Origin: Naegleria gruberi
Lineage: Eukaryota
Strand: one strand, 5' to 3'
NCBI GenBank assembly: GCA_000004985.1
Contig: GG738845.1
DNA length: 64,000 nt
In this document: piece after piece, positions 42,603 through 58,027 of the stretch
How the letters are laid out: each line of letters opens with the position of its first letter
How positions within the stretch are numbered: position 1 is the first letter of the stretch
Made by a program: the position numbers and the translations under genes
The notes under the pieces: model-generated
Told to the model about the DNA's origin: nothing
Databases searched by the model: none
What the model saw: the letters and a program-made list of their open reading frames with translations, nothing else

Positions 42603-45600
42603 ATGTCTGATAGCGAGGAAGAAGTTTTGAAAAACGAATCATCCTCTGAGGCAGCATCAGAAGAGGAAGAAGTTCAAAATCAAGACGATGTCATGGAAGA
42701 ATCAGAAGAAGAGGTTATTACCACTCGTAAAACTAGGGCATCACGAAATGTACGTTAGTAATATTCAAATAATTTAAATTAATATTTCATCGTGATGATG
42801 GTTTCGCTTATTCACAAAATTCCATAATTAAATAGAACTATAAGGAGCCAAGTTCTGAAAGTGAGGAAGAAGAAGTAATACGAGCACCTGTTCGTTCACG
42901 AAGAGGCAGTGCAAGAAAGGTATGTATTGTTGATTATGGGTTTATAACATTGGATCTTTGACCTCTTGTCAACACAACATTAGAATTATAATGAAGACGA
43001 AGCTTACAAAGCATTGGATGATGATGATATGGACGATTCTAACGAAGTAGTTGTCAATAACGACGATGACGAAGAAGCAGAAGTAGAAGCACCAAAAAGA
43101 CAACGTAAAATCAGAAGAAATGTTGATCGGGGCTCAAGAACAAAACAATCAAGCACAATTGGTGCAGGAGACTATGAAATCCCAAAGAGAGACCTCAGAA
43201 CAAGATCCAAGAAGATTGACTACTCTGAGGAAACACAAACCGTTGAAGAACAAGAAGATGAAGTTGTTCCAGAAGAACCTCAAGAAGAGGAGGAACCTTC
43301 TGAAGAGGAAGAAGAAGTTAAACCAAAACGTACAGTCAGAAGAAGAGCAACAACAACAACAAAACCTAAAGCAAGAACTACACGTGGTGGACGTCGTGGT
43401 GCAAAATCCAAAAAGGTTGATTCGGATGATGATGATGTTGTTGTTATGGATGATGATTCTGATGAAGAAGAGAGCTCTTCATCCGAAGAGGAAGGTGAAA
43501 CAACAGAAGAACTCGGTGCTGATGAAGGACCTACCGTTTTTATGGATCAAGATAAAGACGATGTAATAGAATTAATTTTAGCTTGTCGAGTAAAGAAAGA
43601 AGAAGAAGAAATACAAGATGACGAAGAAGAAGGTTCCGAAGAAAAGAAAACTAATAGTGGCGAGGAAACAATAGAATATTTGTGTAAATATAAGAACAAA
43701 TCTTACTTGCACTGCGAGTGGATACCTAGGTACGAGCTGGATGATGATATTCAAACCAGAAACAAAATCAATAGATTCAACAAGCAATATGATGTCAAGT
43801 ATTTTGAAGGATTGGAAGAATATTTCAATCCTGAATTTACAGAAGTAGAGCGTATCATTGATCGTGGTGTTTGGGATGACTCTGAAGTTTATTGTGTAAA
43901 ATGGAAAGGTCTTACATATAGTGAATCAACTTGGGAATTTGAAAATAAGATTGAAGACAAGGAAAAGATTGAGCAATACAAGAGGATTAATAAATTGCCA
44001 ACACCAGAAGATAGAAGAATACCTGCAAGACCAGCTCCTCACAAATTCAAAAAGTTAGAAGAATCACCATCATTTAGAGATGGTAATCAATTGAGAGAAT
44101 ACCAATTAGAAGGTTTGAATTGGTTGGTATTTTGTTGGTATCAGAGAAGAAATTCAATTCTTGCCGACGAAATGGGTCTCGGTAAAACTGTTCAAACAGT
44201 TGCAACACTTGAATATTTGAGAGCTTTTGAACATATTAGAGGTCCATTCATAGTTATTGCACCTCTTTCCACTGTTGAACACTGGAAGAGAGAGTTTGAA
44301 AATTGGACAGATATGAATGTTCTTGTATTCCATGGTAATACTCAATCAAGAGAGGTAATGAAGAATCATGAATTCTTCTTCAAACATCCAAAGACTGGTA
44401 ACTTAATTTATCATCAAAAGACATACAAGTTTAATGTACTCATTACAACTTATGAAATTGTCATGGCTGAATCATCTTACCTTTCAAAGATACCTTGGCA
44501 ATATTTGGTTGTTGATGAAGGTCATAGATTGAAAAATCACAACTCAAAATTGGCACAAATTCTTAAGAATTTTAACGCTGTACACAAACTTTTGCTGACT
44601 GGTACTCCTATTCAAAACAATCTAACAGAATTGTTCTCATTGCTACAATTCTTAGATCCTGAGACTTTTTATGATCTTGATGTTTTCTCAGAGGAATATG
44701 GAAATTTGGGTGAGTCTGGTTCTGAGAAATTGGAAGGACTACATAAGTTAATTTCTCCATACATTCTTAGAAGATTGAAGGAAGATGTAGAAAAGAGTAT
44801 TCCTCCAAAGGAAGAAATTGTCGTTGAAGTTGTCCCAACCTCAATTCAAAAAGCATACGAACAGGCTATTTTCAAGAGAAATAGAGAATTTTTAATGAAG
44901 GGTGTCTCCAAATCACAAAATGTTCCAAAGTTAAACAATGTTCTTATGGAATTGAGAAAAGTTTGTAACCATCCATTCTTGATTAGTGGTGCTGAAGAAA
45001 ACATTACCAGAGGTATGAGTGACGTGGAAGTTAATGAGGCTCTTATTAAATCAAGTAGTAAGATGATTCTTGTAGACAAGCTCTTGAGAAAATTGAGAGA
45101 AGGTGGCCATAAGGTTCTTATTTTCAGTCAAATGGTTCTCGTATTGAACATTCTTGAAGATTACATGAGGTATAGAAACTTTACCTATGTAAGACTCGAT
45201 GGTACCATTAAGGGATCAATCAGACAACAAGCTATTGATAGATTTAATGATCCTAACATTGATACATTTGTATTTTTAGTTTCCACCAAAGCAGGAGGCG
45301 TAGGTATTAACTTGACTTCTGCTGACACTGTCATTATTTATGACAGTGATTGGAATCCTCAAAATGACTTGCAAGCCCAAGCTAGATGTCACAGAATTGG
45401 TCAAACCAAGGAAGTCAAGATTTATCGTCTTCTTACCAAGAATACAAAGGAAAAGGAAATCTTTGAAAGGGCTTCAATGAAGTTAGGTTTAGATAGAGCT
45501 GTTTTGTCATCAAATAATGAATTTGTCCAATCCACTTCCAAGTCTAGTACGCAAAACAAACCAGCACTTGAAAAAGAAGAAATTGAACTTTTACTAAGAC

Positions 45601-48431
45601 ATGGTGCTTATTCTGCTTTCAAGATTGATGATACAGAAGAACAAAAATTGTTGATGGACGAAGATATTGATACCATCATGGAAAGAACAGCAACTATTGT
45701 CAGATATGATCAAGCTAAACCATCAGAATCTAATGGATTTTCTAACTTTTCTAAAGCTACATTCTGCTTCTCTGAAGACATGGAATGGGAAAATTTACTT
45801 CCACGTGAAAAGACAGCTTCAGGTTTGATGAAATTATTGAGTGAAGATTCTTCTTTGGATACTGAAGAACAAAAAAAGGAATATCTCAATGACGTAAAGG
45901 CACTTGTAGATATCAAGATTCATGAAATTGAAAAGTTCAAATATAAGCCAGATGATGAATTGGCAACTCTTCTTACTCAAATGATGTATGCCAGATTGTT
46001 AGATGAAGATCACAAACAACAAGCAAAGGCATGGTTATCAATTCTTGAACAACCAAGGTTGAGAAATGGTTCAACTCGTAATGAAGAGTCTGATCAATCA
46101 GATGACGACTCTAAAGAGACTGTCTCAAAGAAAAAGGCTGGAGGTTGGTATAAGGCTGAAAGACAAAGATTCCAAAAGTCTTTATTGGAAGTTGGTTGGG
46201 GTAAATGGGGAACTATTAGAGAGAACAAACTTCATGCTCATACTATTGAAGATATTCATTCTCTTGCTGAAAGTTTTGTCAGTCAACTTATTACTATGTG
46301 TGATGGCGAAAATGATGTCGACTTCCTCAAGATTTTGTTGCAATCCTCAACAGTGCCTGAAGATAATGACGATTTACCAAGTTCTTCCTTAAAGATTGAG
46401 CTCAAAAACACACCAGCAAGAGCTGGTGATATCTTGAAGGTTCATTTACCTAAAGATGCTGATCTTTCCACTTCAAGTATTGAAATTATTAAGATTGCTC
46501 AACAAGAAGCAAGAGTCTCCAAGAAGAAGAAAGCCAAATCTCAAGCAAGCAGTTCCAAGAGTTCCGGTAAGAACCTTTGCGTTAGATTCTACGAATTGAA
46601 GGAAAAGGATAAGGAAGGTGATGTTTGTGAATTATATGCTCCTGGTGTTGGTGGTGAATATTTTGTAAGGTTGAATTATAACGGACTTTCCAAGGCAAGT
46701 AAATCATTCGAAGTCCAAGGTGTTCATCCAGTATTAGAAGATAAGGAGTGGATTGAACAAGCCAAAAGAGCTGTAAAGACTTGGGTCAAAAAGCTCAAGT
46801 TTAATTTGCGTCTCACAAAGATTCTTGAAGCTTTTACAAAGTTGACCACTGATAATATTCCAAAGGTGGGCATTAAGGCTCCTACAGACTGGTGGGATAG
46901 GGAATGCGATAGGGACTTATTAGTTGGTTTTGATTTATATGGCTATGGTCGCTTTGATGAAATGAAAGAAGACACCTCTCTTTGCTTTAAGGAAAAACAT
47001 GAAGAGCACATGAAAAAGGCAAAGAGTAGAAAGGAAAAGAAGGATGCTGGCTCTTGGCCAACTATTGCTGTGGTTAACAAACGTGCTAACAAACTCATGG
47101 AATTATTAGTTAAGGAAAAGGATATTTCTATTCTTGCAGAACTTAAATCTAATGAAAATGATAATGATGATTTGGCTTTTGAAGAAACTGAAATTTCTGA
47201 ACCAAAAACAATTGTTGACTCTTGGAGTAAGAGAGAAAAGGCAGATATCCAAAGGACACTTATCAACTTTGGTTTATGTCCAGCTGAATCATCTGGTGAG
47301 CCTAACTATGCCAAAATTATTTCATTGGCCAATTTGAGAAAAACTGAAAGTGCTGTAAAGACCTACGTTACTCACTTGGTAAAAGCAGCAAAAATACTTA
47401 ACAATGAAGAAGAAGAGAAGGATACTAAAGAATCCAAGAAGAAAGATTCAAACAAGCCAACAACTGATGATTTGGCTCCAGGTACTGCAAAGAAATTAAT
47501 TCAAAGAATTGATATAATGAATAGTCTTTATACACTTGTTTATCCAAACTGGGATGAATATAAGAGCAAGATGAAATACTTGAAACCAACAGGTTCAGGT
47601 TTACCTAAATGGTGGAAGTCAGAAGCACACGACAAGGAACTTATCAGAGGTATCAAGAAACACGGGTTTGATTTTAAGAAGTTGTTTGAAGATAAGGAGT
47701 TCAAGTTTGGATCAAAGGATTCACCAAGAGAGGGTCTACTCCTTTCACGTATTGAAGAAATTATTTCTTTATTAAGAAAGATTGATGTTCAAGGATCACC
47801 TTCAAAAGCTAAATCGGCTTGGAACTTTACTCCAAAGAAGAAACATGTACTTCTTAAATCACCACCACTCAAGGAAAAGTCTGCTCCAAAAAGAAAAGTC
47901 AAGCGTCAAACAACTCTTGATTTCAAGAATACTGAAGATACAAGCGATCCAATTGAAGATTCAAGTGACAGAGATGAGGACAAGATGCAAGATGATGATG
48001 TTAAGCTATCTAAATCTGAATCCTCAGAACCATCTTCATCACAATCTGACGTGCCAACCATTGTTGAGGATGTTTTGAAGAAGAAGATTCCAAAGAAGAT
48101 CCCAAAGAAGGAAGAATCACAACCAGAAGCCTCCAGCAGTTCTAGCAGTGGAAATGGTACACCACTTAAAAGAAAGAAAGAAGATCATCACGAAGATGAG
48201 GATCATCATACCCCAAGAAGAGGTGAGTATGAGCCAAATGATAAGAAGAGAAAGATGGGTTCCTCTCCAGCAGATCACAAATATTCTCCATCTCACCATA
48301 GAGAAAACAGAGACTACAGAGACCGTGATGATAGAAGAGACAGTAGAGATAGAGAGAGCTATCGTGATGATAGAAGAGACAGTAGAGAGTACAGAAGAGA
48401 CAGGGATGGCAGAGACTATCACAGAAGGTAA
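42603..48431 (+). CDS. CHD1-type chromodomain-helicase-DNA-binding ATPase. Three exons: 42603..42749, 42836..42919 and 42984..48431.
   Basis: Tandem chromodomains are present ('EYLCKYKNKSYLHCEWIP' and 'VYCVKWKGLTYSESTWE'). SNF2 motifs 'LADEMGLGKTVQT' and 'VVDEGHRLKN' and helicase C motifs follow. The C-terminus has SANT/SLIDE-like regions and an RD/RS-rich tail. Two acidic 5' micro-exons are joined by introns 42750..42835 (GTACGT...AG) and 42920..42983 (GTATGT...AG), both in phase 0. Confidence 0.75.
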
Positions 48432-48515: not shown

Positions 48516-50591
48516 ATGAGTCAAAATAGAAACGAGAGGAGCCTCAATATGACTGGAGGAACAGACAATGTTTATGAAGATATGGAGGAAGGTCATACAG
48601 TATTTGAAGAGGAACATAAATCAAACATTAGCCCTCTTCTAAAAACTCCAATTGCTGAGTACGATGAGGATGAATACAATAAATCACCACCTTCCGAGGC
48701 AGGAACTGAGGATTCGGACTTGATGGACCCACCAAGTGGAAGAAGCTCTCTCAGGGAATTGGATGAAGTGAGGAGTGAGGTTCTTTCCGAATTAGCTGGT
48801 CTTATTAACGCTCGCTTATCATCAAATCAGAGCTTTTCTGCTGAGTTGGAAAAGAGATTAGAATTTGCAAGTAATTCAAAATCTGTTTCTCTACTTCAAC
48901 AAATTAAACAAGAAGAGGAGGAACGACAAAGGAGAAGAAGGAAACAAAATTTACTATTGGAAGATACTGCAAATATTGATGATTTAATTGATAGGGAATT
49001 AGAGGAAGAATTAGCTGCCTTAAATGATCTTTCCAATGAATTGTCAAATACACGTTTGTTTGCAGAATCAATTACTGAGCAAGAAGCTTTCAATTATGAG
49101 ACCCTTCTTGGGAAAACTGATAAAGTTTTTGAGGAAAATTCTCCTGTTTCAAGCGTCAGATCTTCAACGAATGGAGTGGAGACTCCATTTGATCAACAGG
49201 CAGAAGAAAAAGCGGAAGAAGAATATGAGGTCAAAAGAAAGATTGGATCTTCTCATATGAATTCCAGAAGAAAGCAAAGAGACAAATTTCAGACAATTAA
49301 TGGTATTGAGGCATTTTTAGAAAAGTGTGATAATTTTTCATTCTTCAATTTTCCAGTTCTTTCAATTATTGAAAAGTTCAATAATCCTTCACTAGATTTG
49401 AGCCATTTAACTCTTGGAGACAAGGGTGCTCAGGCTATATCCTCCATGTTGAGACTTAATAACGTCATTCAGTCCCTCAACATTTCAGATAACAATATCA
49501 CATCTCAAGGTCTTTATGATTTGGTAAACTCTTTAAAGAGAAACTCTACAATCAAACATCTTGACTTGTCTGACAATAAGCTAGGATTTGTAAATACTTC
49601 ATCTATTGATTTGGATGAACCTCAACCACTCGAGCAGAACGCCTATGTCAATCCATACGAATTAAAAGATTGTGGACAATTACTATTACATTTAATTAGA
49701 AAGAATGAACATTTAGACACAATTAATTTGAATAACTGTCACTTGAATGATAGCCATCTAAAATTACTGACTGAAGGCGTATGTGACAACATCACATTGA
49801 AAGGATTGGATATTTCCTCTAACGATTTTACTGATAGTGCTGGTCCAACTCTGGCAAGTCTCATCATTGGTACAAGAGTTCAAATGTTCAATCTTTCATG
49901 GACTTCGCTTAGACGACAAGGATTGACTCATGTGGCTTCCAGTTTGAGACAAAACAGTTCAATTGTTGATTTGAACTTGGAATGGATTGGATTGAGCAAC
50001 GATCACTGTAAAATGTTAGCTCAATATATAGCAGAGAGTGATATTATTGCTCGTTTCAATATTTCACATAACAGAATAAGTGAGGAGGGATTTTTAGCTA
50101 TTTGCAAGGCTATGGAAATCAATACTTCTCTTATCAAGTTTGAAATTGGTTATAATACGTTGGGTAACACTGCCATGATGGCACTATTCAAGAGTTTGCA
50201 CAAAAATCAAAACAATGTACTAAAACAACTTGATGCAAGGGAAACCCAAATATTTGTAATTGTAAACAAGGAGGCCCTCGAAGCAGAACCTCTAATTGAA
50301 CCAGTTTACAAGATACCAGATAAAGTACCAGAGAAACCTGGTCAATCCAAGCAAAAACCTTCTAATAACAAGAAAGACCAACTGAATACAACAATTCCAC
50401 CTCCAGAACCAGCACAACCTGAACCAACAGGGCCAGTGGAAACACTAAATCAAAGATTGGGAAGAGAAATGTTTGTGGCCTTGAGATATTTGAAAGTAAT
50501 GCACCAGAGAGGAGAGTCTTCACTAGATATCAAACTCAGTAATGACATCGAAAAAGTGTTGGTAAGAGGAAAAAAGACTCAAAACGAATAA
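48516..50591 (+). CDS. Leucine-rich-repeat protein of the ribonuclease-inhibitor type.
   Basis: RI-type LRRs recur, for example 'LSHLTLGDKGAQAISSMLRLNNVIQSLNISDNNITSQGLYDLVNSL...LDLSDNKLG'. The C-terminus is Pro/Glu-rich. Confidence 0.5.
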   Translation: MSQNRNERSLNMTGGTDNVYEDMEEGHTVFEEEHKSNISPLLKTPIAEYDEDEYNKSPPSEAGTEDSDLMDPPSGRSSLRELDEVRSEVLSELAGLINARLSSNQSFSAELEKRLEFASNSKSVSLLQQIKQEEEERQRRRRKQNLLLEDTANIDDLIDRELEEELAALNDLSNELSNTRLFAESITEQEAFNYETLLGKTDKVFEENSPVSSVRSSTNGVETPFDQQAEEKAEEEYEVKRKIGSSHMNSRRKQRDKFQTINGIEAFLEKCDNFSFFNFPVLSIIEKFNNPSLDLSHLTLGDKGAQAISSMLRLNNVIQSLNISDNNITSQGLYDLVNSLKRNSTIKHLDLSDNKLGFVNTSSIDLDEPQPLEQNAYVNPYELKDCGQLLLHLIRKNEHLDTINLNNCHLNDSHLKLLTEGVCDNITLKGLDISSNDFTDSAGPTLASLIIGTRVQMFNLSWTSLRRQGLTHVASSLRQNSSIVDLNLEWIGLSNDHCKMLAQYIAESDIIARFNISHNRISEEGFLAICKAMEINTSLIKFEIGYNTLGNTAMMALFKSLHKNQNNVLKQLDARETQIFVIVNKEALEAEPLIEPVYKIPDKVPEKPGQSKQKPSNNKKDQLNTTIPPPEPAQPEPTGPVETLNQRLGREMFVALRYLKVMHQRGESSLDIKLSNDIEKVLVRGKKTQNE

Positions 50592-50609
50592 ACTAAATTT
50601 GTTGTTTAA

Positions 50610-53600
50610 TCAGACTAACATTGAACCTCCACATAAATGCATAATTTCATATAGATCGCAAAGGACTGACTCAAAGTTTGGTCTTTCTTGAGGAATTTGA
50701 TGCCAACATTTTTGCATTAAATTCATATAATTGATAATTCCTTGAAGGGAATACTCGTCCAAGATTCGCTTTTCGTTTGGCTGTATAAACTCTCTTGACC
50801 AATGTTCCAATTGAGCATCATTTATAAATGGAATAGTTGGTCTTTTGCCTTTCACAATTTGAGTAATGACGTTGAAAGCGCTTCCTTCCTCAGTTTCCCT
50901 GAAAAAGTTCATCTTTTTGTGATTGTAAACTGTATATGGGTCTTCCTCAAAGAAGAGTGACCACATTATAATGCCGAAAGAGTAAACATCAAACTTGGAT
51001 GCATTTTTAAATCTATCCTCCCTTGCAAGAGATGACGACATGGAAACTTCTGATTGGATCGAACCTGCAAATGACTCATATGAAAAACCAGACATGTTAC
51101 CAACAAAATCAAAACTAGGTCTGTTATCAACAAAGTTCTCAGGCGGACAATAAAGAAGCGTACCTTTGTTGTAATAAATTAATTGTTTGAATTGTCAATA
51201 ATTGAAACCTACCAATATTAAGGGTCATACTTGTTTGTAAAGTATTATATCCAACCAACTTGGATAATCCAAAGTCGCATATTTTTACAGATCTGTGCTC
51301 ATCCAGGAGAATATTTTGTGGTTTTAAATCTCTGTGAGCAATAATATTTGGTTTCAATGTATGCAGATAATTCATTCCTCTACTCACTTCAACTAGAATA
51401 TTCAGCTTTTCCTTCAAGGTAAGTGTATTCTTTCCAAGTTTACACTCAGAAATAAGTTTATCCAAACTTCCACCTTTCATATATTCAATTACCATATACT
51501 TTTGGTTTGGATTTGGCACACAAAACCCAAATAATGTAACTATGCAGAATGAGGATACTATTTAAAATGTGATTCACTTACCAATATTTGGATGAGATAA
51601 ACTCATTAACAATGTTGCTTCCTTTTCAAATTCGTCATCATCATCTATTCCATCCTTCTTAATACTTTTAATAGCTACTTCCTTATTATTCCATTTGGCT
51701 TGATAGACCGTTCCCTGGCCTCCTTCACCAATCTTTTTAATAATCTTTATATCATCTGTTGAAATAATGAAAGTTTTTGGAGTTCTTGGGGACTCATCAT
51801 TTTCAAATATGATTCTCTTATCAAGAAGAACTTGTTCCATTTCCTTATCAGCTTGTTTTCTTCTTTTAAGCAATTGAGATTTATACCTTGCAAAGCATAT
51901 AAAAATAACTGCTATTAATGAAATTCCAGCAATAAAAGAGGAAAGAACTGAAGCAATCGGTATCCAATACCAAATATTGACGCACCCTGCTGCATCAAAT
52001 ATATACAAAGAAGGGCAATCAGTAACAATGACTTGAATTTTAGAATTAGCTCTCTGAAATTTTAAGGAAAGGGTGAATTTTTCAAAAGATTCTAACTTTT
52101 CATGAGAAAATATTGTAAACTCCATTCTTATTCCAGATTCACTTGCTTTTCCAGTTCGTAGCAAGTATTTAGAATTATCTGTTGAAATGGAGAGTAATCC
52201 ATTTGGTCCTTTAATTTTCTTACCATACACGTCGAGTGGATCTATGACTATGACCAAAGTTTGACCCAAATATGGAGATATCATCTTTTTTTCATCCATT
52301 TTCTCACCTGATATGGCGTCAAAGACTTGAAAATCAAATTTGAAACAAGGAGAAGAAACATCCTCATTCTCAAATAATGTGTCAGACCTGTTGGAATTTT
52401 TGAATATTGACTTGGGATTGGGAGACTCAGTGTATCCAATATTTCCCAATAATGCACTGTTATTGATAAACTCACAAGAATCCAGAAATGCAACAATAGC
52501 AAATTTTGCACCTTCACCCACATATACCACACCTCCTCTTTCTGCCACATTGTTCTCGAATATACTAGCAGTAAAACTTGCACCACCAACAATAAAAGCA
52601 ACACCTCCATAAGTGGTTGGGCTACCATTACCTATGAATTTGCTATTTTTCACATCCAAGAAGCTCTTTGTTTGATCTTGTTTAAACAATATTGCACTTC
52701 CTTCAGGTGCATTATTATAGTAAAAGTTACAATTTCTTATGCTAACCTTGTTATTGGTGAGGAAATTCAGCGCACCACCTTTACAATTTTCAAAAGTAGT
52801 GTTTAAAATGGCATGGTATTGTGATCCACTAAATGGCTTTAATGAACTTGAGGAAGCATCGTTATAATTAATGGCTCCAAGATTTGAAACAATATTTGAA
52901 AATATCGAATTTGATATCTCAAAATCGAAAATATCTCCAATTTTTAAGCAGTTTGCAGAAATATTGTAAAAATAACAATTTTTAACCTGTAGAGATTTTA
53001 CAGAAATAGCCATAATAAGAGTATCTGAAATTGATTCATGGAAGGTAAGACTATCAAGTGAAATACCCATCAATGAAGATGTGTATAAAAAAGGTGAATC
53101 AATCTTTAGACTGCAATTTTTGATGCTAACATAAACTGAAAATGAAATATGAAAAAGTGGATAAGGGATTAAGGAATTTTCTCTATCAGATCCCACATTA
53201 TCCATAGCTATATTTCTTGCTTGAGTAATGGAAATAAATGAATTATCAAGAGTAACCGTATTATGAAATACAATTTCATCTATCAATTCAATATATAAAA
53301 TGAATCGAATATCGGAATCTTCCCAAACAAGACTTCTAGAATTGGTAAAAAGGCATTCATTATAAGGGTAATAAATTCTATCAAATTTAAAACCAGTAAG
53401 GAAAATGGTATCGTATTGTGAAATCATAATTAGATTAGGAATCATATGAGATATATTTTTCATGTAAAAAGAAGTTGATTTACGAGGTTTCACTGGATCT
53501 GTCCTTTTTTCATCAGTAAATTCACCAAATATTAAAGAGGAAGCACTGTTGAATATACAATTTTCCATAATAACATTTGGTGAGTGAGATAGTTGAATTT

Positions 53601-54063
53601 TTGCATTTGTAAAGATTATATTCCTTGCCTCAAATGATGCAATACTTGGAGAATCAGGCAGTATGGAGGTCGTATAATCCTCACAACCAATCAGTCCATT
53701 AGGGTTTAGAGAATTTTCCAAAACAATTATATACGACAGATTGTCATTTTCAAATAAATTGGGAGGTGCACATTGAGAAACACTTTGTACTCTTAATATT
53801 ATCGTAAGTGTTGTAGTTTCATTGAAATATGTCGCATTAAGACTTTGATACAAATGATCCATAGCAGAAGGAATGCTTGGGCATAAATATAACGAATTTA
53901 ACCCATCTGAGCATTGATTGTAGTTTGAATCCAAATTATAAGAAAATGTTATTTTCTGCAATGCCGATATTCGACTGGCTACATTCAACATCATCCATAC
54001 CATGACTATTATCATGTACTGCAGCTGTTGCTGACTATATCGTGTTGTAGTAGCCTTAATCAT
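50610..54063 (-). CDS. Receptor-like Ser/Thr protein kinase: signal peptide, beta-helix (pectate-lyase-like) ectodomain, TM helix and kinase domain. Three exons: 54063..51582, 51539..51213 and 51163..50610.
   Basis: Parallel beta-helix repeats are present, for example 'NCNFYYNNAPEGSAILF' and 'FENNVAERGGVVYVGEGAKF'. The TM helix is 'SVLSSFIAGISLIAVIFICF'. The kinase domain reads 'IGEGGQGTVYQAKW...VAIK' and 'HPNIVTLFGFCVPNPNQKYMVIEYMKGGSL' across intron 1, then 'HRDLKPQNILL' and 'DFGLSKL', then 'GTLLYCPPE' across intron 2, then 'DVYSFGIIMW'. Intron 1 (+ coordinates 51540..51581) has donor GTAAGT. Intron 2 (51164..51212) has donor GTAGGT. Both are phase 1. Confidence 0.7.
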
Positions 54064-54614
54064 TCTAACAATAACAATAATTTAAATAATAATATAATTA
54101 TAATATATACAACGGTTGATTTGATGAGAGTATACACAAGATAATGATTGGAATTGTATCAATTTGAGAGGGTTTGATGAAGGTTGAATTTTGAGGTTTC
54201 TTCCCTCAATTTGCCTCAAAGAATCTTAAGATTTTTTTAAGATGATGAAAAATGAGGGTTCCTTTTTTACTACCAACTCGTTATCCACACCTTCACTACC
54301 TTATTGTGCATAACAGTAATAACTTTGGAGAAATGGAGCAGTGTAAGGATTGATAGTATTCAAGTTGAGTGGTTTGGTATGAATGGTTTAAGTTAGTGAA
54401 AGAGTTGATTTCAAAAAGGATGACCTTAATATGGTGCTTATTTCCTATAGATTTGAACTGAAACTTCAATCGCTGAATTGAAAATTTCAATTCTTCGATT
54501 CTGAAGGTACCCCCTATGCACAAAACAGAATCTTTTTGGAAGATAGATTTTGTAGATGTTGGTGTGACCAATTATTTTAATTTATAATATTATGAAGAAT
54601 GGACCTCCTAAAAT

Positions 54615-55733
54615 TTATGACGCAGTGGTGGTTGAAGATAAATAGGCTTGTTGGGTTTTTTGTAGGTTTTGGGAATGATAGAACCCTCCTCCCATATACA
54701 TGTTAATTTTACCTTGCACATCTATTCCAATATAGATATTTCTTGCTAACAAGTCCAATAATTGAATAAAATTTGGATTATTTCCAATGTAGATTTGTGT
54801 TTGGAATGAGAATGAATCGAATCCACATAGGTCTTGCTTACAAATCAATCCACTTATCATTGTTTGATTTTCAAATGTGTAGGATATGGGTGTTTCTATA
54901 TCATATTTTAAATGTTTAATACTGTCGAATAGCTTGATGTTTAACAATATTGAACTAATTTGGGTTGGAATCAAACTAGGGTTAAATCCTGATAGTACAA
55001 TGTTAAATCCAACAGTTCTATCTATGAATGGTAATTGATAAATTTGAATCTCTTCAATATAAATATAAGGTTGTAAAAATAATAAATTATACAGTAATGT
55101 TGTAATGAATAGTAATATTAAAATAATAACACTGGTGCTTGTCAAACAAAAAGACCATTTCCACTTTCGTATTTGTGAAACTTGTTTTAAAAGTGTATTT
55201 GTAGAATGTGATTCGTATTGTTTTCCTTCATATTCATCAGCCAGTGTCGTAATATGTCTATTAGTAATACGTTGCAACAAGGCTTGATTATCAAAATCAA
55301 TATTGCCATAATTATTCGGAATTTGATAATAATATTCTTGCTCCTGATCATTGTTATTAGGTGATAGAGGTCTAGTATTTGGTTCACTTGAATGTGTTGA
55401 TGAGGAATTTTGTTGTTGCTGTGGAGATTTAGATCTCATCATATTGGACAACATACTCGCTGATGATGATGCAATATTATTTTGATTCATCACTCCTCCT
55501 AAAGATGATCCACCTCCACTAACAACCTGTTGTTGTTGTTGTGTATTATTATGAGCAAAATAGAGAAAATCTTCATTGTCGGAATCATTAGAGTCATTAT
55601 CTTGATCGACAATATTGGCCAATGATTGCCGATTTATTGTTGTTTGTGTAGTGTTTAAAGATTGTTGATAGGATGATAGTGATGGCTGAAAGGAATTAAT
55701 TGATGATGCCATCGGGTTGTGTTGTTGATTCAT
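54615..55733 (-). CDS. Single-pass membrane protein with an N/Q/S-rich cytoplasmic N-terminus. The ectodomain is loosely LEA-2/NDR1-like.
   Basis: The TM helix is 'VIILILLFITTLLYNLLFL'. The A-run ATG at 55733 is the likely start, since the six-frame track's start at 55790 is non-ATG. Confidence 0.4.
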   Translation of the reverse strand: MNQQHNPMASSINSFQPSLSSYQQSLNTTQTTINRQSLANIVDQDNDSNDSDNEDFLYFAHNNTQQQQQVVSGGGSSLGGVMNQNNIASSSASMLSNMMRSKSPQQQQNSSSTHSSEPNTRPLSPNNNDQEQEYYYQIPNNYGNIDFDNQALLQRITNRHITTLADEYEGKQYESHSTNTLLKQVSQIRKWKWSFCLTSTSVIILILLFITTLLYNLLFLQPYIYIEEIQIYQLPFIDRTVGFNIVLSGFNPSLIPTQISSILLNIKLFDSIKHLKYDIETPISYTFENQTMISGLICKQDLCGFDSFSFQTQIYIGNNPNFIQLLDLLARNIYIGIDVQGKINMYMGGGFYHSQNLQKTQQAYLSSTTTAS

Positions 55734-55807
55734 TTTTTGTTTCTTTTTGATTTTTAAATGAAAGATATTTAAAGGAGAACTAAATAACAAAATGAATAAT
55801 CAAATGA

Positions 55808-56386
55808 TTAATCTTTTTTTACTTTAAAATTATTATCCAAAGTAGAAAGGATAATCGTAAATAATATCACAATAAGAGTCGTAAGGAGATTTAATTTAAT
55901 CACGTATGGAAGAATTGAAATTAATTTAATATTAATTTCAAATAAAATAATAAGAACAATTAATTTTTCCAAAATTGAAATTGATATATGTAATGCAATA
56001 CAAGTAAATCCAATATAGGGTCTATTAATATTGAATTTGGTCCAAAAAATTGTCAATAACATGGTAATAAACGGCACAGTGAATAATACATTAAAAATTG
56101 TTATGATAATATGGTAAAATATCTGTTCCGAAGTTAATTGTTTTGAAATAAATTCATAAATATCATTTGATGTATTCATTAAATTAAATTCTATTGGAAT
56201 TTGATTATTCAATTTGGTAGTAATAATAAAATATTCAATTAACACTATTGTCATTAATATTATTCCGAACATGACCATTGTTGCTAATCCACTCGAAGAA
56301 TTGGTATTAGTACTAGCATTGTGAATTGTTGTTGTTGTTGATGGTGTTGAAGAAGTAATTGTCTTGTTGGTATCTGATGAAGACAT
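55808..56386 (-). CDS. Small polytopic membrane protein with about four TM helices.
   Basis: Four hydrophobic helices are visible, and the ATG has an A-run context. Confidence 0.4.
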   Translation of the reverse strand: MSSSDTNKTITSSTPSTTTTIHNASTNTNSSSGLATMVMFGIILMTIVLIEYFIITTKLNNQIPIEFNLMNTSNDIYEFISKQLTSEQIFYHIIITIFNVLFTVPFITMLLTIFWTKFNINRPYIGFTCIALHISISILEKLIVLIILFEINIKLISILPYVIKLNLLTTLIVILFTIILSTLDNNFKVKKD

Positions 56387-57106: not shown

Positions 57107-58027
57107 ATGTTCAAACAATCATCAAGCAAAATTCTACCATCACTCACATCGGTGAGCAAGAGATCATCATGGAATTTAATAATTAAAAAGAATTACTCTG
57201 CTCGTTTTTTTCAAACTAGACAATCAAAATCATTGCACGTTGCTTCTACCAACACTTCTGTTGCAACAAATTCATCATCACCATCATCCGTTGATATTCA
57301 TGAAGTGAACAAGTTTTCATTACTTGCAAGAACTAATGAATGGTGGAATCCTAATGGAGCTTTAAAAACTCTTCATCACATTAATCCAACACGTATGGAA
57401 TATATCCGATCACAAATTGTTAAACATTTTAATATCAGTGATAATACACATGAACCATTGAAGGGACTGAATATATTGGATGTTGGTTGTGGAGGCGGTC
57501 TTGTTTCTGAATGTTTGGCAAGATTAGGTGCTAATGTAACTGGATTGGATGCTTCTCTGGATAATATTAATATTGCCAGAACACATAATACTTCATTGAA
57601 TAATTTAAATTATATTCACTCTACAGTTGAAAATTTACTTTATAATAATGAAAGTACAAAATTCGATTGTATTGTATCAGTGGAAGTTATTGAACACGTA
57701 GCTCATGCTCAATCATTTGTTCATAATTTATCAAAATTGTTAAAACCTAATGGATTTCTCATTCTCAGTACAATGAACAGAACTCCAAAATCATACTTGT
57801 ATACCATTGTGATGGCAGAATATGTTTTAAATTTGGTACCTAGAGGAACACACGAATGGAGAAAATATGTTACTCCACAAGAAATGGTCATTTTCATGAA
57901 TCAAGCCAATGTCAAACTATATGATGTTCAAGGAATGGAATATAATCCACTCTTGAATAAGGCATTCATTGAAAAGAATACTGAAATTGATGTTAATTAT
58001 TTCATTACAGGTGTCAAGCAAGAATAA
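57107..58027 (+). CDS. Ubiquinone-biosynthesis O-methyltransferase COQ3/UbiG with a presequence-like N-terminus.
   Basis: The SAM-binding motif 'LNILDVGCGGGLVSECLARLGANVTGLDAS' is present, followed by 'DCIVSVEVIEHV'. The N-terminus reads 'MFKQSSSKILPSLTSVSKRSSWNLIIKK'. Confidence 0.65.
   Translation: MFKQSSSKILPSLTSVSKRSSWNLIIKKNYSARFFQTRQSKSLHVASTNTSVATNSSSPSSVDIHEVNKFSLLARTNEWWNPNGALKTLHHINPTRMEYIRSQIVKHFNISDNTHEPLKGLNILDVGCGGGLVSECLARLGANVTGLDASLDNINIARTHNTSLNNLNYIHSTVENLLYNNESTKFDCIVSVEVIEHVAHAQSFVHNLSKLLKPNGFLILSTMNRTPKSYLYTIVMAEYVLNLVPRGTHEWRKYVTPQEMVIFMNQANVKLYDVQGMEYNPLLNKAFIEKNTEIDVNYFITGVKQE

What the first reader, a model, noticed from the sequence alone, without database searches (positions are those of the whole stretch)
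50610..54063. Receptor-like kinase with a right-handed beta-helix ectodomain, split by two phase-1 introns at conserved kinase positions
The architecture is signal peptide, about 600 aa of parallel beta-helix repeats (pectate-lyase/PbH1-like), one TM helix and a Ser/Thr kinase. Both introns interrupt the kinase domain. One falls inside 'HPNI|VTLFGFC' and the other just before 'GTLLYCPPE'. Both show the same 'ATT G|GTARGT' donor context. Beta-helix ectodomains on eukaryotic receptor kinases are unusual, and this may be a carbohydrate-sensing receptor. Its 3' end lies only 18 bp from the 3' end of the convergent LRR gene.
Basis: partly seen in the sequence, partly recalled or inferred. Interest (0 to 1): 0.55.

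Follow-up and report, generated by a model that had tools for sequence, protein, structure and literature searches.

The report
Naegleria beta-helix receptor kinase gene
This is a real three-exon gene of the amoeba Naegleria gruberi for a membrane-spanning protein kinase whose outer part is a long beta-helix like those of bacterial adhesins and sugar-cutting enzymes; the combination is unusual and undescribed, the public database has the gene wrongly assembled, and nothing yet shows what the protein senses.

Summary
On the minus strand, 54063→50610, three ORFs join through two phase-1 GT-AG introns (42 and 49 nt) into a 1,120-aa protein. The closest relative (locus L001) lacks intron 2, and its uninterrupted DNA encodes exactly the predicted junction (MTLNIGTLLYCPPE). 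Intron 1 sits at the same codon there.

The window is Naegleria gruberi. The public N. gruberi model is a chimera truncated at intron 1. Only three homologues with this architecture were found: a close relative, N. fowleri XP_044558449.1 and one environmental contig.

- The helix is ~460 aa, not 600.
- Its repeats resemble PMP-type adhesin repeats (FxxN/GG).
- No catalytic-type residue set is conserved.
- The intron positions are not conserved across the family.

"Carbohydrate sensing" remains untested. This is a modest architectural novelty: a new ectodomain type on a known kind of protist receptor kinase.

The parts
50610..54063 (-). Whole gene, start codon to stop codon: three exons and two introns, 1,120-aa product
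   Evidence: Spliced CDS of 3,363 nt with no internal stop. It is 100%/99% identical to database fragments P0001/P0002 of Naegleria gruberi.
51582..54063 (-). Exon 1: signal-like N-terminus, ectodomain, TM, juxtamembrane segment and kinase N-lobe up to HPNI
   Evidence: ORF 51574..54063; donor ATT G|GTAAGT.
51540..51581 (-). Intron 1, 42 nt, phase 1, GTAAGT...TAG
   Evidence: L001 has a 50-nt intron at the same codon position. The intron is identical in environmental contig L004.
51213..51539 (-). Exon 2: kinase subdomains V-VIII (HRDLKPQN, DFG, activation loop)
51164..51212 (-). Intron 2, 49 nt, phase 1, GTAGGT...AAG; specific to the N. gruberi lineage
   Evidence: It is absent in L001, where continuous DNA reads MTLNIGTLLYCPPE. 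It is absent in N. fowleri and L003 and present in L004.
50610..51163 (-). Exon 3: kinase C-lobe with two insertions, plus the TGA stop (50610-50612)
53959..54063 (-). N-terminal signal-peptide-like segment (aa 1-35; hydrophobic core aa 17-30; ...ISA|L)
   Evidence: Hydropathy. Equivalent segments occur in L001, L003 and the extended N. fowleri reading frame. No SignalP run was possible.
52429..53814 (-). Right-handed parallel beta-helix (about aa 84-545); the Pfam Beta_helix hit covers aa 355-520 (52504-53001); four FxxN...GG rungs lie at aa 447-540
51970..52368 (-). Membrane-proximal Ig-like beta-sandwich stalk with the conserved CP...C segment (aa 566-698)
51895..51969 (-). Single transmembrane helix (aa 699-723), followed by a basic stretch, RYKSQLLKRRK
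   Evidence: Kyte-Doolittle maximum 2.64; translation check.
51754..51894 (-). Juxtamembrane segment with a motif conserved in all four homologues (A..E.EQ..D....F)
   Evidence: Invariant columns A738, E741, E743, Q744, D748, F753.
50613..51753 (-). TKL-type protein kinase domain (aa 771-1120, interrupted by both introns): GEGGQG 779-784, VAIK 796-799, HRDLKPQN 896-903, DFG 916-918, PPE 943-945
   Evidence: Pkinase 165 bits, PK_Tyr_Ser-Thr 162 bits. Best solved relatives are CTR1, TAK1, RIPK4 and TNNI3K.
50592..50609 (.). 18-bp spacer between the stop codons of the receptor gene and the convergent LRR gene (48516-50591, +)
   Evidence: The same convergent arrangement, with a 26-bp spacer, occurs in L001.

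Best explanation
The locus is one three-exon gene of Naegleria gruberi. It encodes a type-I, single-pass receptor-like kinase of 1,120 aa.

Domain order:
- a cleavable signal-like N-terminus
- a Cys-capped right-handed parallel beta-helix of about 460 aa, whose C-terminal rungs carry the FxxN/GG signature of PMP-type adhesin repeats
- an Ig-like beta-sandwich stalk
- one TM helix
- a conserved juxtamembrane segment
- a TKL-group, RD-type Ser/Thr kinase with all catalytic motifs and two C-lobe insertions

Shown here: the gene structure, the domain order, the fold, and its conservation in three other heterolobosean loci.

Inferred mechanism: the beta-helix is a non-enzymatic binding surface for an extended extracellular ligand. 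That ligand would be a glycan or protein polymer on prey bacteria, on other cells or on the substratum. Binding clusters or dimerises the receptor. The kinases then trans-phosphorylate their Ser/Thr-rich activation loops and signal inward, plausibly to adhesion, motility or phagocytosis.

The ectodomain evolves about four times faster than the kinase, as expected for a ligand-facing module.
For: Gene model:
- The CDS closes only when both introns are removed.
- L001 lacks intron 2 and encodes the identical junction. It has intron 1 at the same codon.
- The Pkinase and CTR1 alignments are continuous across both junctions.

Fold:
- Pfam Beta_helix is above its cutoff.
- The AF2 ectodomain model has pLDDT 75 and pTM 0.71.
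- The stalk is Ig-like.

Topology:
- There is one strong TM segment with basic residues on its C-terminal side and an N-terminal hydrophobic segment.
- All 10 N-glycosylation sequons found by the scan lie in the ectodomain; the cytoplasmic part was not validly scanned because of a script error.
- 14 of 15 ectodomain Cys are conserved with L001.

Kinase competence: GxGxxG, VAIK, HRD, DFG and PPE are all present.

Non-enzymatic reading:
- Across four homologues, the invariant residues in the helix are C, N, F, G and A, with only one acidic residue, D262.
- The nearest sequence relatives of residues about 390-515 are Chlam_PMP/Beta_helix adhesin-like repeat proteins.

Selection: dN is 0.40 for the ectodomain, 0.10 for the kinase and 0.047 for the neighbouring LRR gene. 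All values are well below the saturated dS.

Family: the same architecture occurs in N. fowleri XP_044558449.1 and in environmental contig L003.
Against: - No transcript evidence was available, so splicing is inferred from comparison only.
- No signal-peptide predictor was available.
- No ligand, localisation or kinase activity is known.
- The homologue alignment has only four sequences. The absence of conserved catalytic residues is therefore suggestive rather than proof, and the AF2 models rest on a shallow alignment.
- Pfam Chlam_PMP does not hit this protein.
- The kinase group assignment rests on best PDB hits, not on a phylogeny.
Confidence: 0.72

Rival explanations
1. The ectodomain is an active carbohydrate-degrading enzyme (a glycoside hydrolase, lyase or epimerase of the pectin-lyase fold) tethered to the membrane. 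The kinase would report or regulate catalysis rather than ligand binding.
Against: Only one acidic residue (D262) is invariant in the helix across four homologues. The other invariant residues are structural: C, N, F, G and A. No enzyme family is hit by Pfam or by PDB sequence search. The nearest sequence relatives are adhesin-like PMP repeat proteins. Identity between close orthologues is uniformly 40-60%, with no hyper-conserved active-site patch.
Confidence: 0.1
2. The protein is primarily an adhesin for cell-substratum or cell-prey attachment. It would be a eukaryotic counterpart of PMP or autotransporter beta-helix adhesins that bind proteins rather than glycans, with the kinase providing outside-in signalling. 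This reading differs from the first reader's carbohydrate sensor only in the ligand class.
Against: Pfam Chlam_PMP itself does not match. There is only one canonical GGA[ILV] motif. The similarity is at repeat level, in N-rich sequence, and says nothing about the ligand.
Confidence: 0.3
3. The functional product is the truncated protein that ends at HPNIGK* through intron 1 retention, as in the public model. That product would be a kinase-dead membrane decoy or adhesin, and the downstream kinase exons would be unused or decaying.
For: The public N. gruberi model and the prokaryote-style gene calls stop there. No transcript data were available.
Against: Exons 2 and 3 are 84% identical in protein to L001, with dN 0.10 against a saturated dS. 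They retain every catalytic motif. The N. fowleri and L003 homologues have a complete kinase with introns elsewhere. The introns carry canonical GTAAGT/GTAGGT donors and AG acceptors.
Confidence: 0.04
4. The public N. gruberi gene model is correct. In that model the upstream ORF (54714-55712) is spliced through a 1,577-nt intron to the second half of the ectodomain, so the N-terminal 309 codons described here are not coding.
For: It is the deposited annotation (P0002).
Against: The supposed intron contains 309 in-frame stop-free codons. Those codons are about 48% identical in protein to L001 and also align to N. fowleri and L003. They fold as the confident N-terminal part of the beta-helix. 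L001 has a different upstream neighbour. The two introns supported here are 42 and 49 nt.
Confidence: 0.02

Closest known systems
Naegleria fowleri hypothetical protein FDP41_007123 (XP_044558449.1 / KAF0973736.1, UniRef A0A6A5BGF7, 'Protein kinase domain-containing protein')
   Same: It has the same overall architecture: beta-helix ectodomain, Ig-like stalk, TM, conserved juxtamembrane motif, and a TKL kinase with the same C-lobe insertions and the NIGTLLYC.PE and EDRFKNASK motifs. The ectodomain profile E-value is 1e-30 over the full length.
   Different: Ectodomain identity is only about 24%. The locus is not syntenic. It has three introns at other positions: two in the ectodomain and one at WN|D in the N-lobe. 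The deposited start codon omits the signal peptide. It is uncharacterised.
Plant receptor-like kinases (RLK/Pelle family, e.g. CERK1, wall-associated and malectin-like RLKs)
   Same: They share the single-pass type-I topology, an extracellular binding domain, and an RD Ser/Thr kinase of the TKL-like type. The CERK1 kinase is among the PDB hits at E 5e-27. As working models they are carbohydrate or cell-surface sensors.
   Different: The ectodomain class differs: beta-helix plus Ig-like, against LRR, LysM, lectin, malectin or EGF. The kinase scores better against CTR1 and TAK1 than against CERK1. Membership of the RLK/Pelle clade was not tested by phylogeny. The lineage, Heterolobosea, is unrelated.
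Protist transmembrane kinases (Entamoeba TMKs, oomycete LRR-TMKs, amoebozoan TMKs; Yin et al. 2023, PMC10463195)
   Same: They are single-pass S/T/Y kinases with lineage-specific ectodomains. About 40% of protist TMK non-kinase domains are unannotated in Pfam.
   Different: That survey's main text does not mention Naegleria, beta-helix or PMP domains. No CXXC-rich repeats of the kind I recall, from my own knowledge, for Entamoeba TMK ectodomains were noted in the sequence; this was not formally scanned.
Chlamydial polymorphic membrane proteins and archaeal/bacterial adhesin-like proteins (Pfam Chlam_PMP PF02415 + Beta_helix PF13229 ± Big_3_5)
   Same: They have FxxN...GG(A/V) rungs of a right-handed beta-helix followed by Ig-like domains. 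They are the best HMMER relatives of ectodomain residues about 390-515.
   Different: Those proteins are secreted or outer-membrane passengers, or cell-wall proteins, with no kinase. None of the listed top hits outside Naegleria has one. PF02415 does not match this protein.
Pectin-lyase-fold enzymes and phage tailspike depolymerases (GH28, GH87, GH110, PL1/PL6/PL9, AlgE/AlgG epimerases)
   Different: Identity is about 10%. There is no sequence-level family match. No conserved catalytic constellation is present.

Membership tests
Eukaryotic protein kinase superfamily (Pfam PF00069 / PF07714) | Profile match above the curated threshold across the whole catalytic core | tested here: met
   Pkinase scores 165.3 bits (cutoff 31.7) and PK_Tyr_Ser-Thr 162 bits (cutoff 23.1). 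The best stretch, aa 774-947, spans both exon junctions.
Eukaryotic protein kinase superfamily (Pfam PF00069 / PF07714) | Catalytic motifs: GxGxxG, VAIK Lys, HRD, DFG, APE | tested here: met
   GEGGQG 779-784, VAIK 796-799, HRDLKPQN 896-903, DFG 916-918, and PPE in place of APE at 943-945. All are invariant in the four homologues.
TKL group of kinases (Ser/Thr specificity) | Closest relatives are TKL kinases, and the catalytic loop is of the HRDLKxxN (Ser/Thr) type | tested here: inconclusive
   The best solved relatives are CTR1 (9e-35), TAK1, RIPK4 and TNNI3K, but tyrosine kinases follow closely. The catalytic loop is HRDLKPQN. No kinome phylogeny was run.
Plant RLK/Pelle (IRAK) family | The kinase domain falls in the monophyletic RLK/Pelle clade | not tested
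   Only PDB ranking is available: CERK1 at 5e-27 ranks below CTR1 and TAK1. A phylogeny is needed.
Right-handed parallel beta-helix / pectin-lyase fold (Pfam PF13229; SCOP SSF51126) | Sequence profile match | tested here: met
   PF13229 scores 28.6 bits against cutoff 25.9, at aa 355-520. The margin is small, and the family is not matched at E<=0.001 by the N. fowleri or L003 homologues.
Right-handed parallel beta-helix / pectin-lyase fold (Pfam PF13229; SCOP SSF51126) | Three-dimensional fold | tested here: met
Chlamydia-type polymorphic membrane protein repeats (Pfam PF02415) | Profile match, and multiple GGA[ILV] + FxxN tetrapeptides | tested here: not met
   PF02415 gives no hit at E<=1. 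There are four FxxN...GG rungs at aa 447-540 but only one canonical GGAL. The similarity appears only through the profile search, where the top hits are PF02415 proteins.
Pectate lyase / polygalacturonase-type enzymes | A conserved catalytic constellation: several Asp/Glu plus Arg/Lys in the groove | tested here: not met
   Across four homologues only D262 is an invariant charged residue in the helix. There is no family hit in Pfam or PDB sequence searches. The caveat is that only four sequences were compared and no structural superposition was inspected.
Type-I single-pass membrane receptor | N-terminal signal peptide and one TM helix with the positive-inside orientation | tested here: inconclusive
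   Hydropathy shows segments at aa 17-35 and 699-723, with RYKSQLLKRRK after the TM. Equivalent N-termini occur in all homologues. No SignalP or TMHMM was available.
Ig-like (E-set) domains | A seven- to nine-stranded beta-sandwich fold | tested here: met

The most novel reading that the evidence does not exclude
This would be a heterolobosean-specific receptor family in which a PMP-type beta-helix adhesin module, otherwise known from bacterial and archaeal surface proteins, is wired directly to a eukaryotic TKL kinase. That would give Naegleria, including the pathogen N. fowleri, a contact sensor for prey or host surfaces. It would be the first beta-helix sensor domain described on a eukaryotic protein kinase. 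In addition, intron 2 would be a recent lineage-specific intron gain. It would have inserted at a proto-splice site (AATATTG|G) identical to that of the older intron 1 in the same gene.
Probability: 0.25. Interest if true: 0.55.

Novelty: new variant of a known kind. Interest (0 to 1): 0.36.

Why it matters
Single-pass receptor kinases arose repeatedly in eukaryotes by attaching different sensor domains to TKL-type kinases. A beta-helix/PMP-like sensor is not among the described types. It would therefore add a new input module to that list, and one that points to recognition of extended surface polymers.

The family also has a member in Naegleria fowleri, where surface receptors that trigger adhesion and trogocytosis are poorly known.

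On the practical side, the N. gruberi reference annotation is wrong here: the model is a chimera with the upstream gene and its kinase is truncated. The N. fowleri model lacks its signal peptide. Kinome and surface-protein surveys based on those models would therefore miss or misclassify this receptor.

The presence/absence difference of intron 2 between close relatives is a clean small example of intron turnover in Naegleria.

Tried and rejected
- Word-indexed protein searches with the full protein, the ectodomain and a four-sequence full-length alignment found only self, the L001 orthologue and generic kinases or PMP proteins. They even missed the N. fowleri homologue.
- A PDB sequence search with the ectodomain profile found nothing meaningful.
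The scan with the two-sequence alignment gave no relative.
- The metagenome scan with family-specific kinase C-lobe motifs gave 80 loci. All were generic kinases at no more than about 35% identity apart from short segments, and none matched the ectodomain.
- I tested whether intron 2 arose by copying intron 1 (reverse splicing). Intron sequences are no more similar than shuffled controls, and even the orthologous intron 1 pair is not alignable, so the idea is untestable at this divergence.
- I looked for a paralogue in the window and found none.
- A promoter/terminator scan of the 3' junction is a bacterial-consensus tool and was uninformative.
- Literature searches for Naegleria transmembrane kinases, PMP proteins, beta-helix receptor kinases and the N. 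fowleri locus tag gave nothing specific.
- Pfam found no family for the stalk domain.
Full report
**Source and observation**

The window is Naegleria gruberi nuclear DNA at 33% G+C. The exon-1 ORF is 99-100% identical to a database protein named 'predicted protein [Naegleria gruberi]' and to an environmental contig.

On the minus strand three ORFs lie head to tail: 51574..54063, 51139..51519 and 50610..51095. Two GT-AG introns were removed: 51581..51540 (42 nt, GTAAGT...TAG) and 51212..51164 (49 nt, GTAGGT...AAG). This yields a 3,363-nt CDS with no internal stop, encoding 1,120 aa.

Both introns are phase 1. They lie at HPNI|VTLFGFC and NIG|TLLYCPPE and share the donor context AATATTG|GTARGT. 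ATTGGTARGT occurs nowhere else in the 64 kb. Without splicing, the reading frame stops two codons into intron 1, or about 20 codons past the intron 2 donor. The convergent LRR_6 gene (48516..50591) ends 18 bp from the receptor's TGA.

**Is the splicing real?**

No transcript data could be consulted, so I used comparison with related loci.

- *Closest relative.* An ectodomain search found a 49%-identical protein (P0028) on a 7-kb Logan contig, L001. That contig is syntenic, with the same convergent LRR gene 26 bp downstream.
- *Intron 1.* In L001 a 50-nt GTAAGT...TAG intron sits at exactly the same codon (HPNI|VSLFGFC).
- *Intron 2.* It is absent in L001, and the uninterrupted DNA reads ATG ACG CTT AAT ATT GGA ACC TTG CTG TAT TGC CCT CCA GAA. 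That is MTLNIGTLLYCPPE, identical to my predicted spliced junction.
- *Continuity of alignments.* The Pfam Pkinase match (aa 774-947) and the alignment to the CTR1 kinase run unbroken across both junctions.
- *Selection on the downstream exons.* Exons 2-3 are 84% identical in protein between the two species, while synonymous sites are saturated (pS about 0.68).
- *Second isolate.* A near-identical environmental genomic contig (L004) carries both introns unchanged.

I regard the three-exon model as established short of cDNA.

**The public models are wrong**

The deposited N. gruberi protein (P0002, 853 aa) joins the upstream ORF (55712..54714) through a 1,577-nt 'intron' (54713..53137) to the second half of the ectodomain. 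It then stops at HPNIGK*, which is read-through into intron 1. The skipped stretch holds 309 stop-free codons. They are conserved in three other loci and fold as the N-terminal part of the helix. L001 has a different upstream neighbour.

The N. fowleri homologue's deposited start is also too far 3'. The in-frame upstream extension reads MAVLTVICSLMMAVEA|QLSEMNYRFSIG, which looks like a typical signal peptide.

**Architecture**

- *Topology.* Hydropathy gives one strong TM segment (aa 699-723) followed by RYKSQLLKRRK, and an N-terminal hydrophobic segment (aa 17-35...ISA|L). All ten N-glycosylation sequons found lie in the ectodomain; the cytoplasmic part was not validly scanned because of a script error.
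- *Pfam.* It reports Pkinase (165 bits), PK_Tyr_Ser-Thr (162 bits) and Beta_helix PF13229 (28.6 bits against cutoff 25.9, aa 355-520).
- *Kinase.* All catalytic motifs are present: GEGGQG, VAIK, HRDLKPQN, DFG and PPE. It is of the RD type. CTR1, TAK1, RIPK4 and TNNI3K are its best solved relatives, which points to the TKL group. It carries a Ser-rich insertion between PPE and DVYSFG, where 49 residues separate the two motifs (more than I recall for typical kinases), and a second insertion before CWHQIPQERP.
- *Juxtamembrane segment.* A motif (A..E.EQ..D....F) is invariant in all four homologues.

**Relatives**

An exhaustive HMMER search of 1.84 billion representatives with the ectodomain profile gave 1,286 hits at E<=1e-3. 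Only four aligned over the whole ectodomain:

- the two N. gruberi entries
- N. fowleri FDP41_007123 / XP_044558449.1 (1,103 aa, E 1e-30, same architecture)
- an environmental ENA protein (P0072, contig L003), whose kinase continues after a 40-nt intron

All other hits listed (the best 150) match only profile positions of about 390-515, and do so many times over. The eight that I scanned against Pfam are Chlam_PMP (seven also Beta_helix) repeat proteins, some with Big_3_5 domains. The named ones are Methanobrevibacter adhesin-like proteins.

In the receptor, this region carries four rungs with the pattern F-x-x-N-x-A...G-G, invariant in the four homologues. That is the PMP signature in weakened form. 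PF02415 itself does not match.

Among the 150 best ectodomain relatives, only the Naegleria proteins contain a kinase domain. A third word-indexed search and two metagenome scans found no further members. There is no paralogue in the window.

**Intron evolution**

The introns cut conserved kinase motifs, but their positions are not conserved.

- N. fowleri has two ectodomain introns and one at WN|D in the N-lobe.
- L003 has a single intron three codons upstream of that N. fowleri N-lobe position.
- Intron 1 is shared only by N. gruberi and L001.
- Intron 2 is found only in N. gruberi.

Parsimony favours a gain of intron 2 in the N. gruberi lineage, at a site that reads AATATTG|G in the intron-less relative. 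A test for sequence similarity between the introns, which would indicate intron copying, gave nothing above shuffled controls.

**Evolutionary rates**

Between N. gruberi and L001, protein identity is as follows.

| Region | Identity | dN |
|---|---|---|
| Ectodomain | 48-51% | 0.40 |
| TM / juxtamembrane | 76% | – |
| Kinase | 84% | 0.10 |
| Neighbouring LRR gene | 92% | 0.047 |

Ectodomain identity is evenly spread at 40-60%, with no hyper-conserved patch. 14 of 15 Cys are conserved, but only 2 glycosylation sequons are positionally shared. This pattern fits a conserved scaffold with a fast-changing exposed surface.

**Mechanism**

*Shown:* one gene; the domain order; a beta-helix plus Ig-like ectodomain; an intact RD TKL-type kinase; a small heterolobosean family.

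*Inferred:* type-I surface topology. The helix acts as a non-enzymatic binding platform, because only one acidic residue (D262) is invariant in it. Ligand-driven clustering would lead to trans-phosphorylation of the Thr/Ser-rich activation loop.

The ligand class is open. The nearest sequence relatives are adhesins. I put roughly equal weight on glycan and protein/adhesion ligands, and about 10% on a catalytic ectodomain.

**Novelty and score**

Single-pass TKL-type receptor kinases with lineage-specific ectodomains are a known kind in protists. About 40% of their non-kinase domains are unannotated (PMC10463195). That survey's main text does not mention Naegleria or beta-helix domains, and my other full-text searches found no description.

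I therefore rate it a new variant of a known kind. The sensor module is new and the reference annotation needs correcting, but there is no functional evidence and no long-standing question is resolved. Interest is 0.36.

The main limitation is that I could not survey AFDB or InterPro for other beta-helix-kinase fusions. 'Unusual' therefore rests on the HMMER and literature searches only.

Noticed in passing
window 51577-55712 (-): The deposited N. gruberi protein (P0002, 'predicted protein') is a chimera. It joins the upstream ORF 55712..54714 through a false 1,577-nt intron (54713..53137) to 53136..51577, and it stops by read-through into intron 1.
   Followed up: yes
L002 5917-6001 (N. fowleri VFQX01000058.1): The N. 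fowleri homologue XP_044558449.1 starts at an internal Met. The in-frame upstream extension adds MAVLTVICSLMMAVEA|QLSEMNYRFSIG, a signal-peptide-like N-terminus that aligns with the first strand of the other family members.
   Followed up: partly
window 51164-51212 vs L001 4190-4215: Intron 2 is present in N. gruberi (the window and environmental contig L004). It is absent from the closest relative, from N. fowleri and from L003. The empty site reads AATATTG|GAACC, the same exonic context as intron 1. This is probably a lineage-specific intron gain.
   Followed up: partly
window 48516-50612: The convergent LRR_6 (RNI-like) gene is 92% identical in protein to its L001 orthologue. Its stop codon lies 18 bp from the receptor's stop codon (26 bp in L001). 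The two 3' UTRs must therefore overlap each other's coding sequence.
   Followed up: partly
window 54615-55790 and 55808-56386 (-): Two ORFs lie on the same strand 17 bp apart: a Q/N/S-rich 391-aa ORF and a 192-aa ORF, each with hydrophobic stretches that look like membrane segments. Neither has a Pfam match. They may be one split gene or two genes. L001 has a different gene upstream of the receptor, so synteny breaks here.
   Followed up: no
window 51754-51969 (-): The TM helix and juxtamembrane segment are much better conserved (76%) than the ectodomain (about 50%). The motif A..E.EQ..D....F is invariant in all four homologues, and the TM has small-residue spacing (ASVLSSFIAGIS). This suggests a role in dimerisation or regulation.
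   Followed up: no
window 50988-51134 (-), aa 946-994: A Ser-rich insertion lies between the PPE motif and subdomain IX of the kinase. Its length varies between homologues: it is longer in N. fowleri and shorter in L003. It is probably a disordered or regulatory loop.
   Followed up: no
window 43014-48431 (+) and 57107-58027 (+): The neighbouring genes are a CHD-type chromodomain/SNF2 helicase (1,805-aa ORF) and a class-I SAM-dependent methyltransferase. Both are ordinary housekeeping-type genes.
   Followed up: partly
(method): The word-indexed protein search never returned the N. fowleri homologue, although it shares long identical kinase words with the query. Only the exhaustive HMMER search found it.
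   Followed up: no
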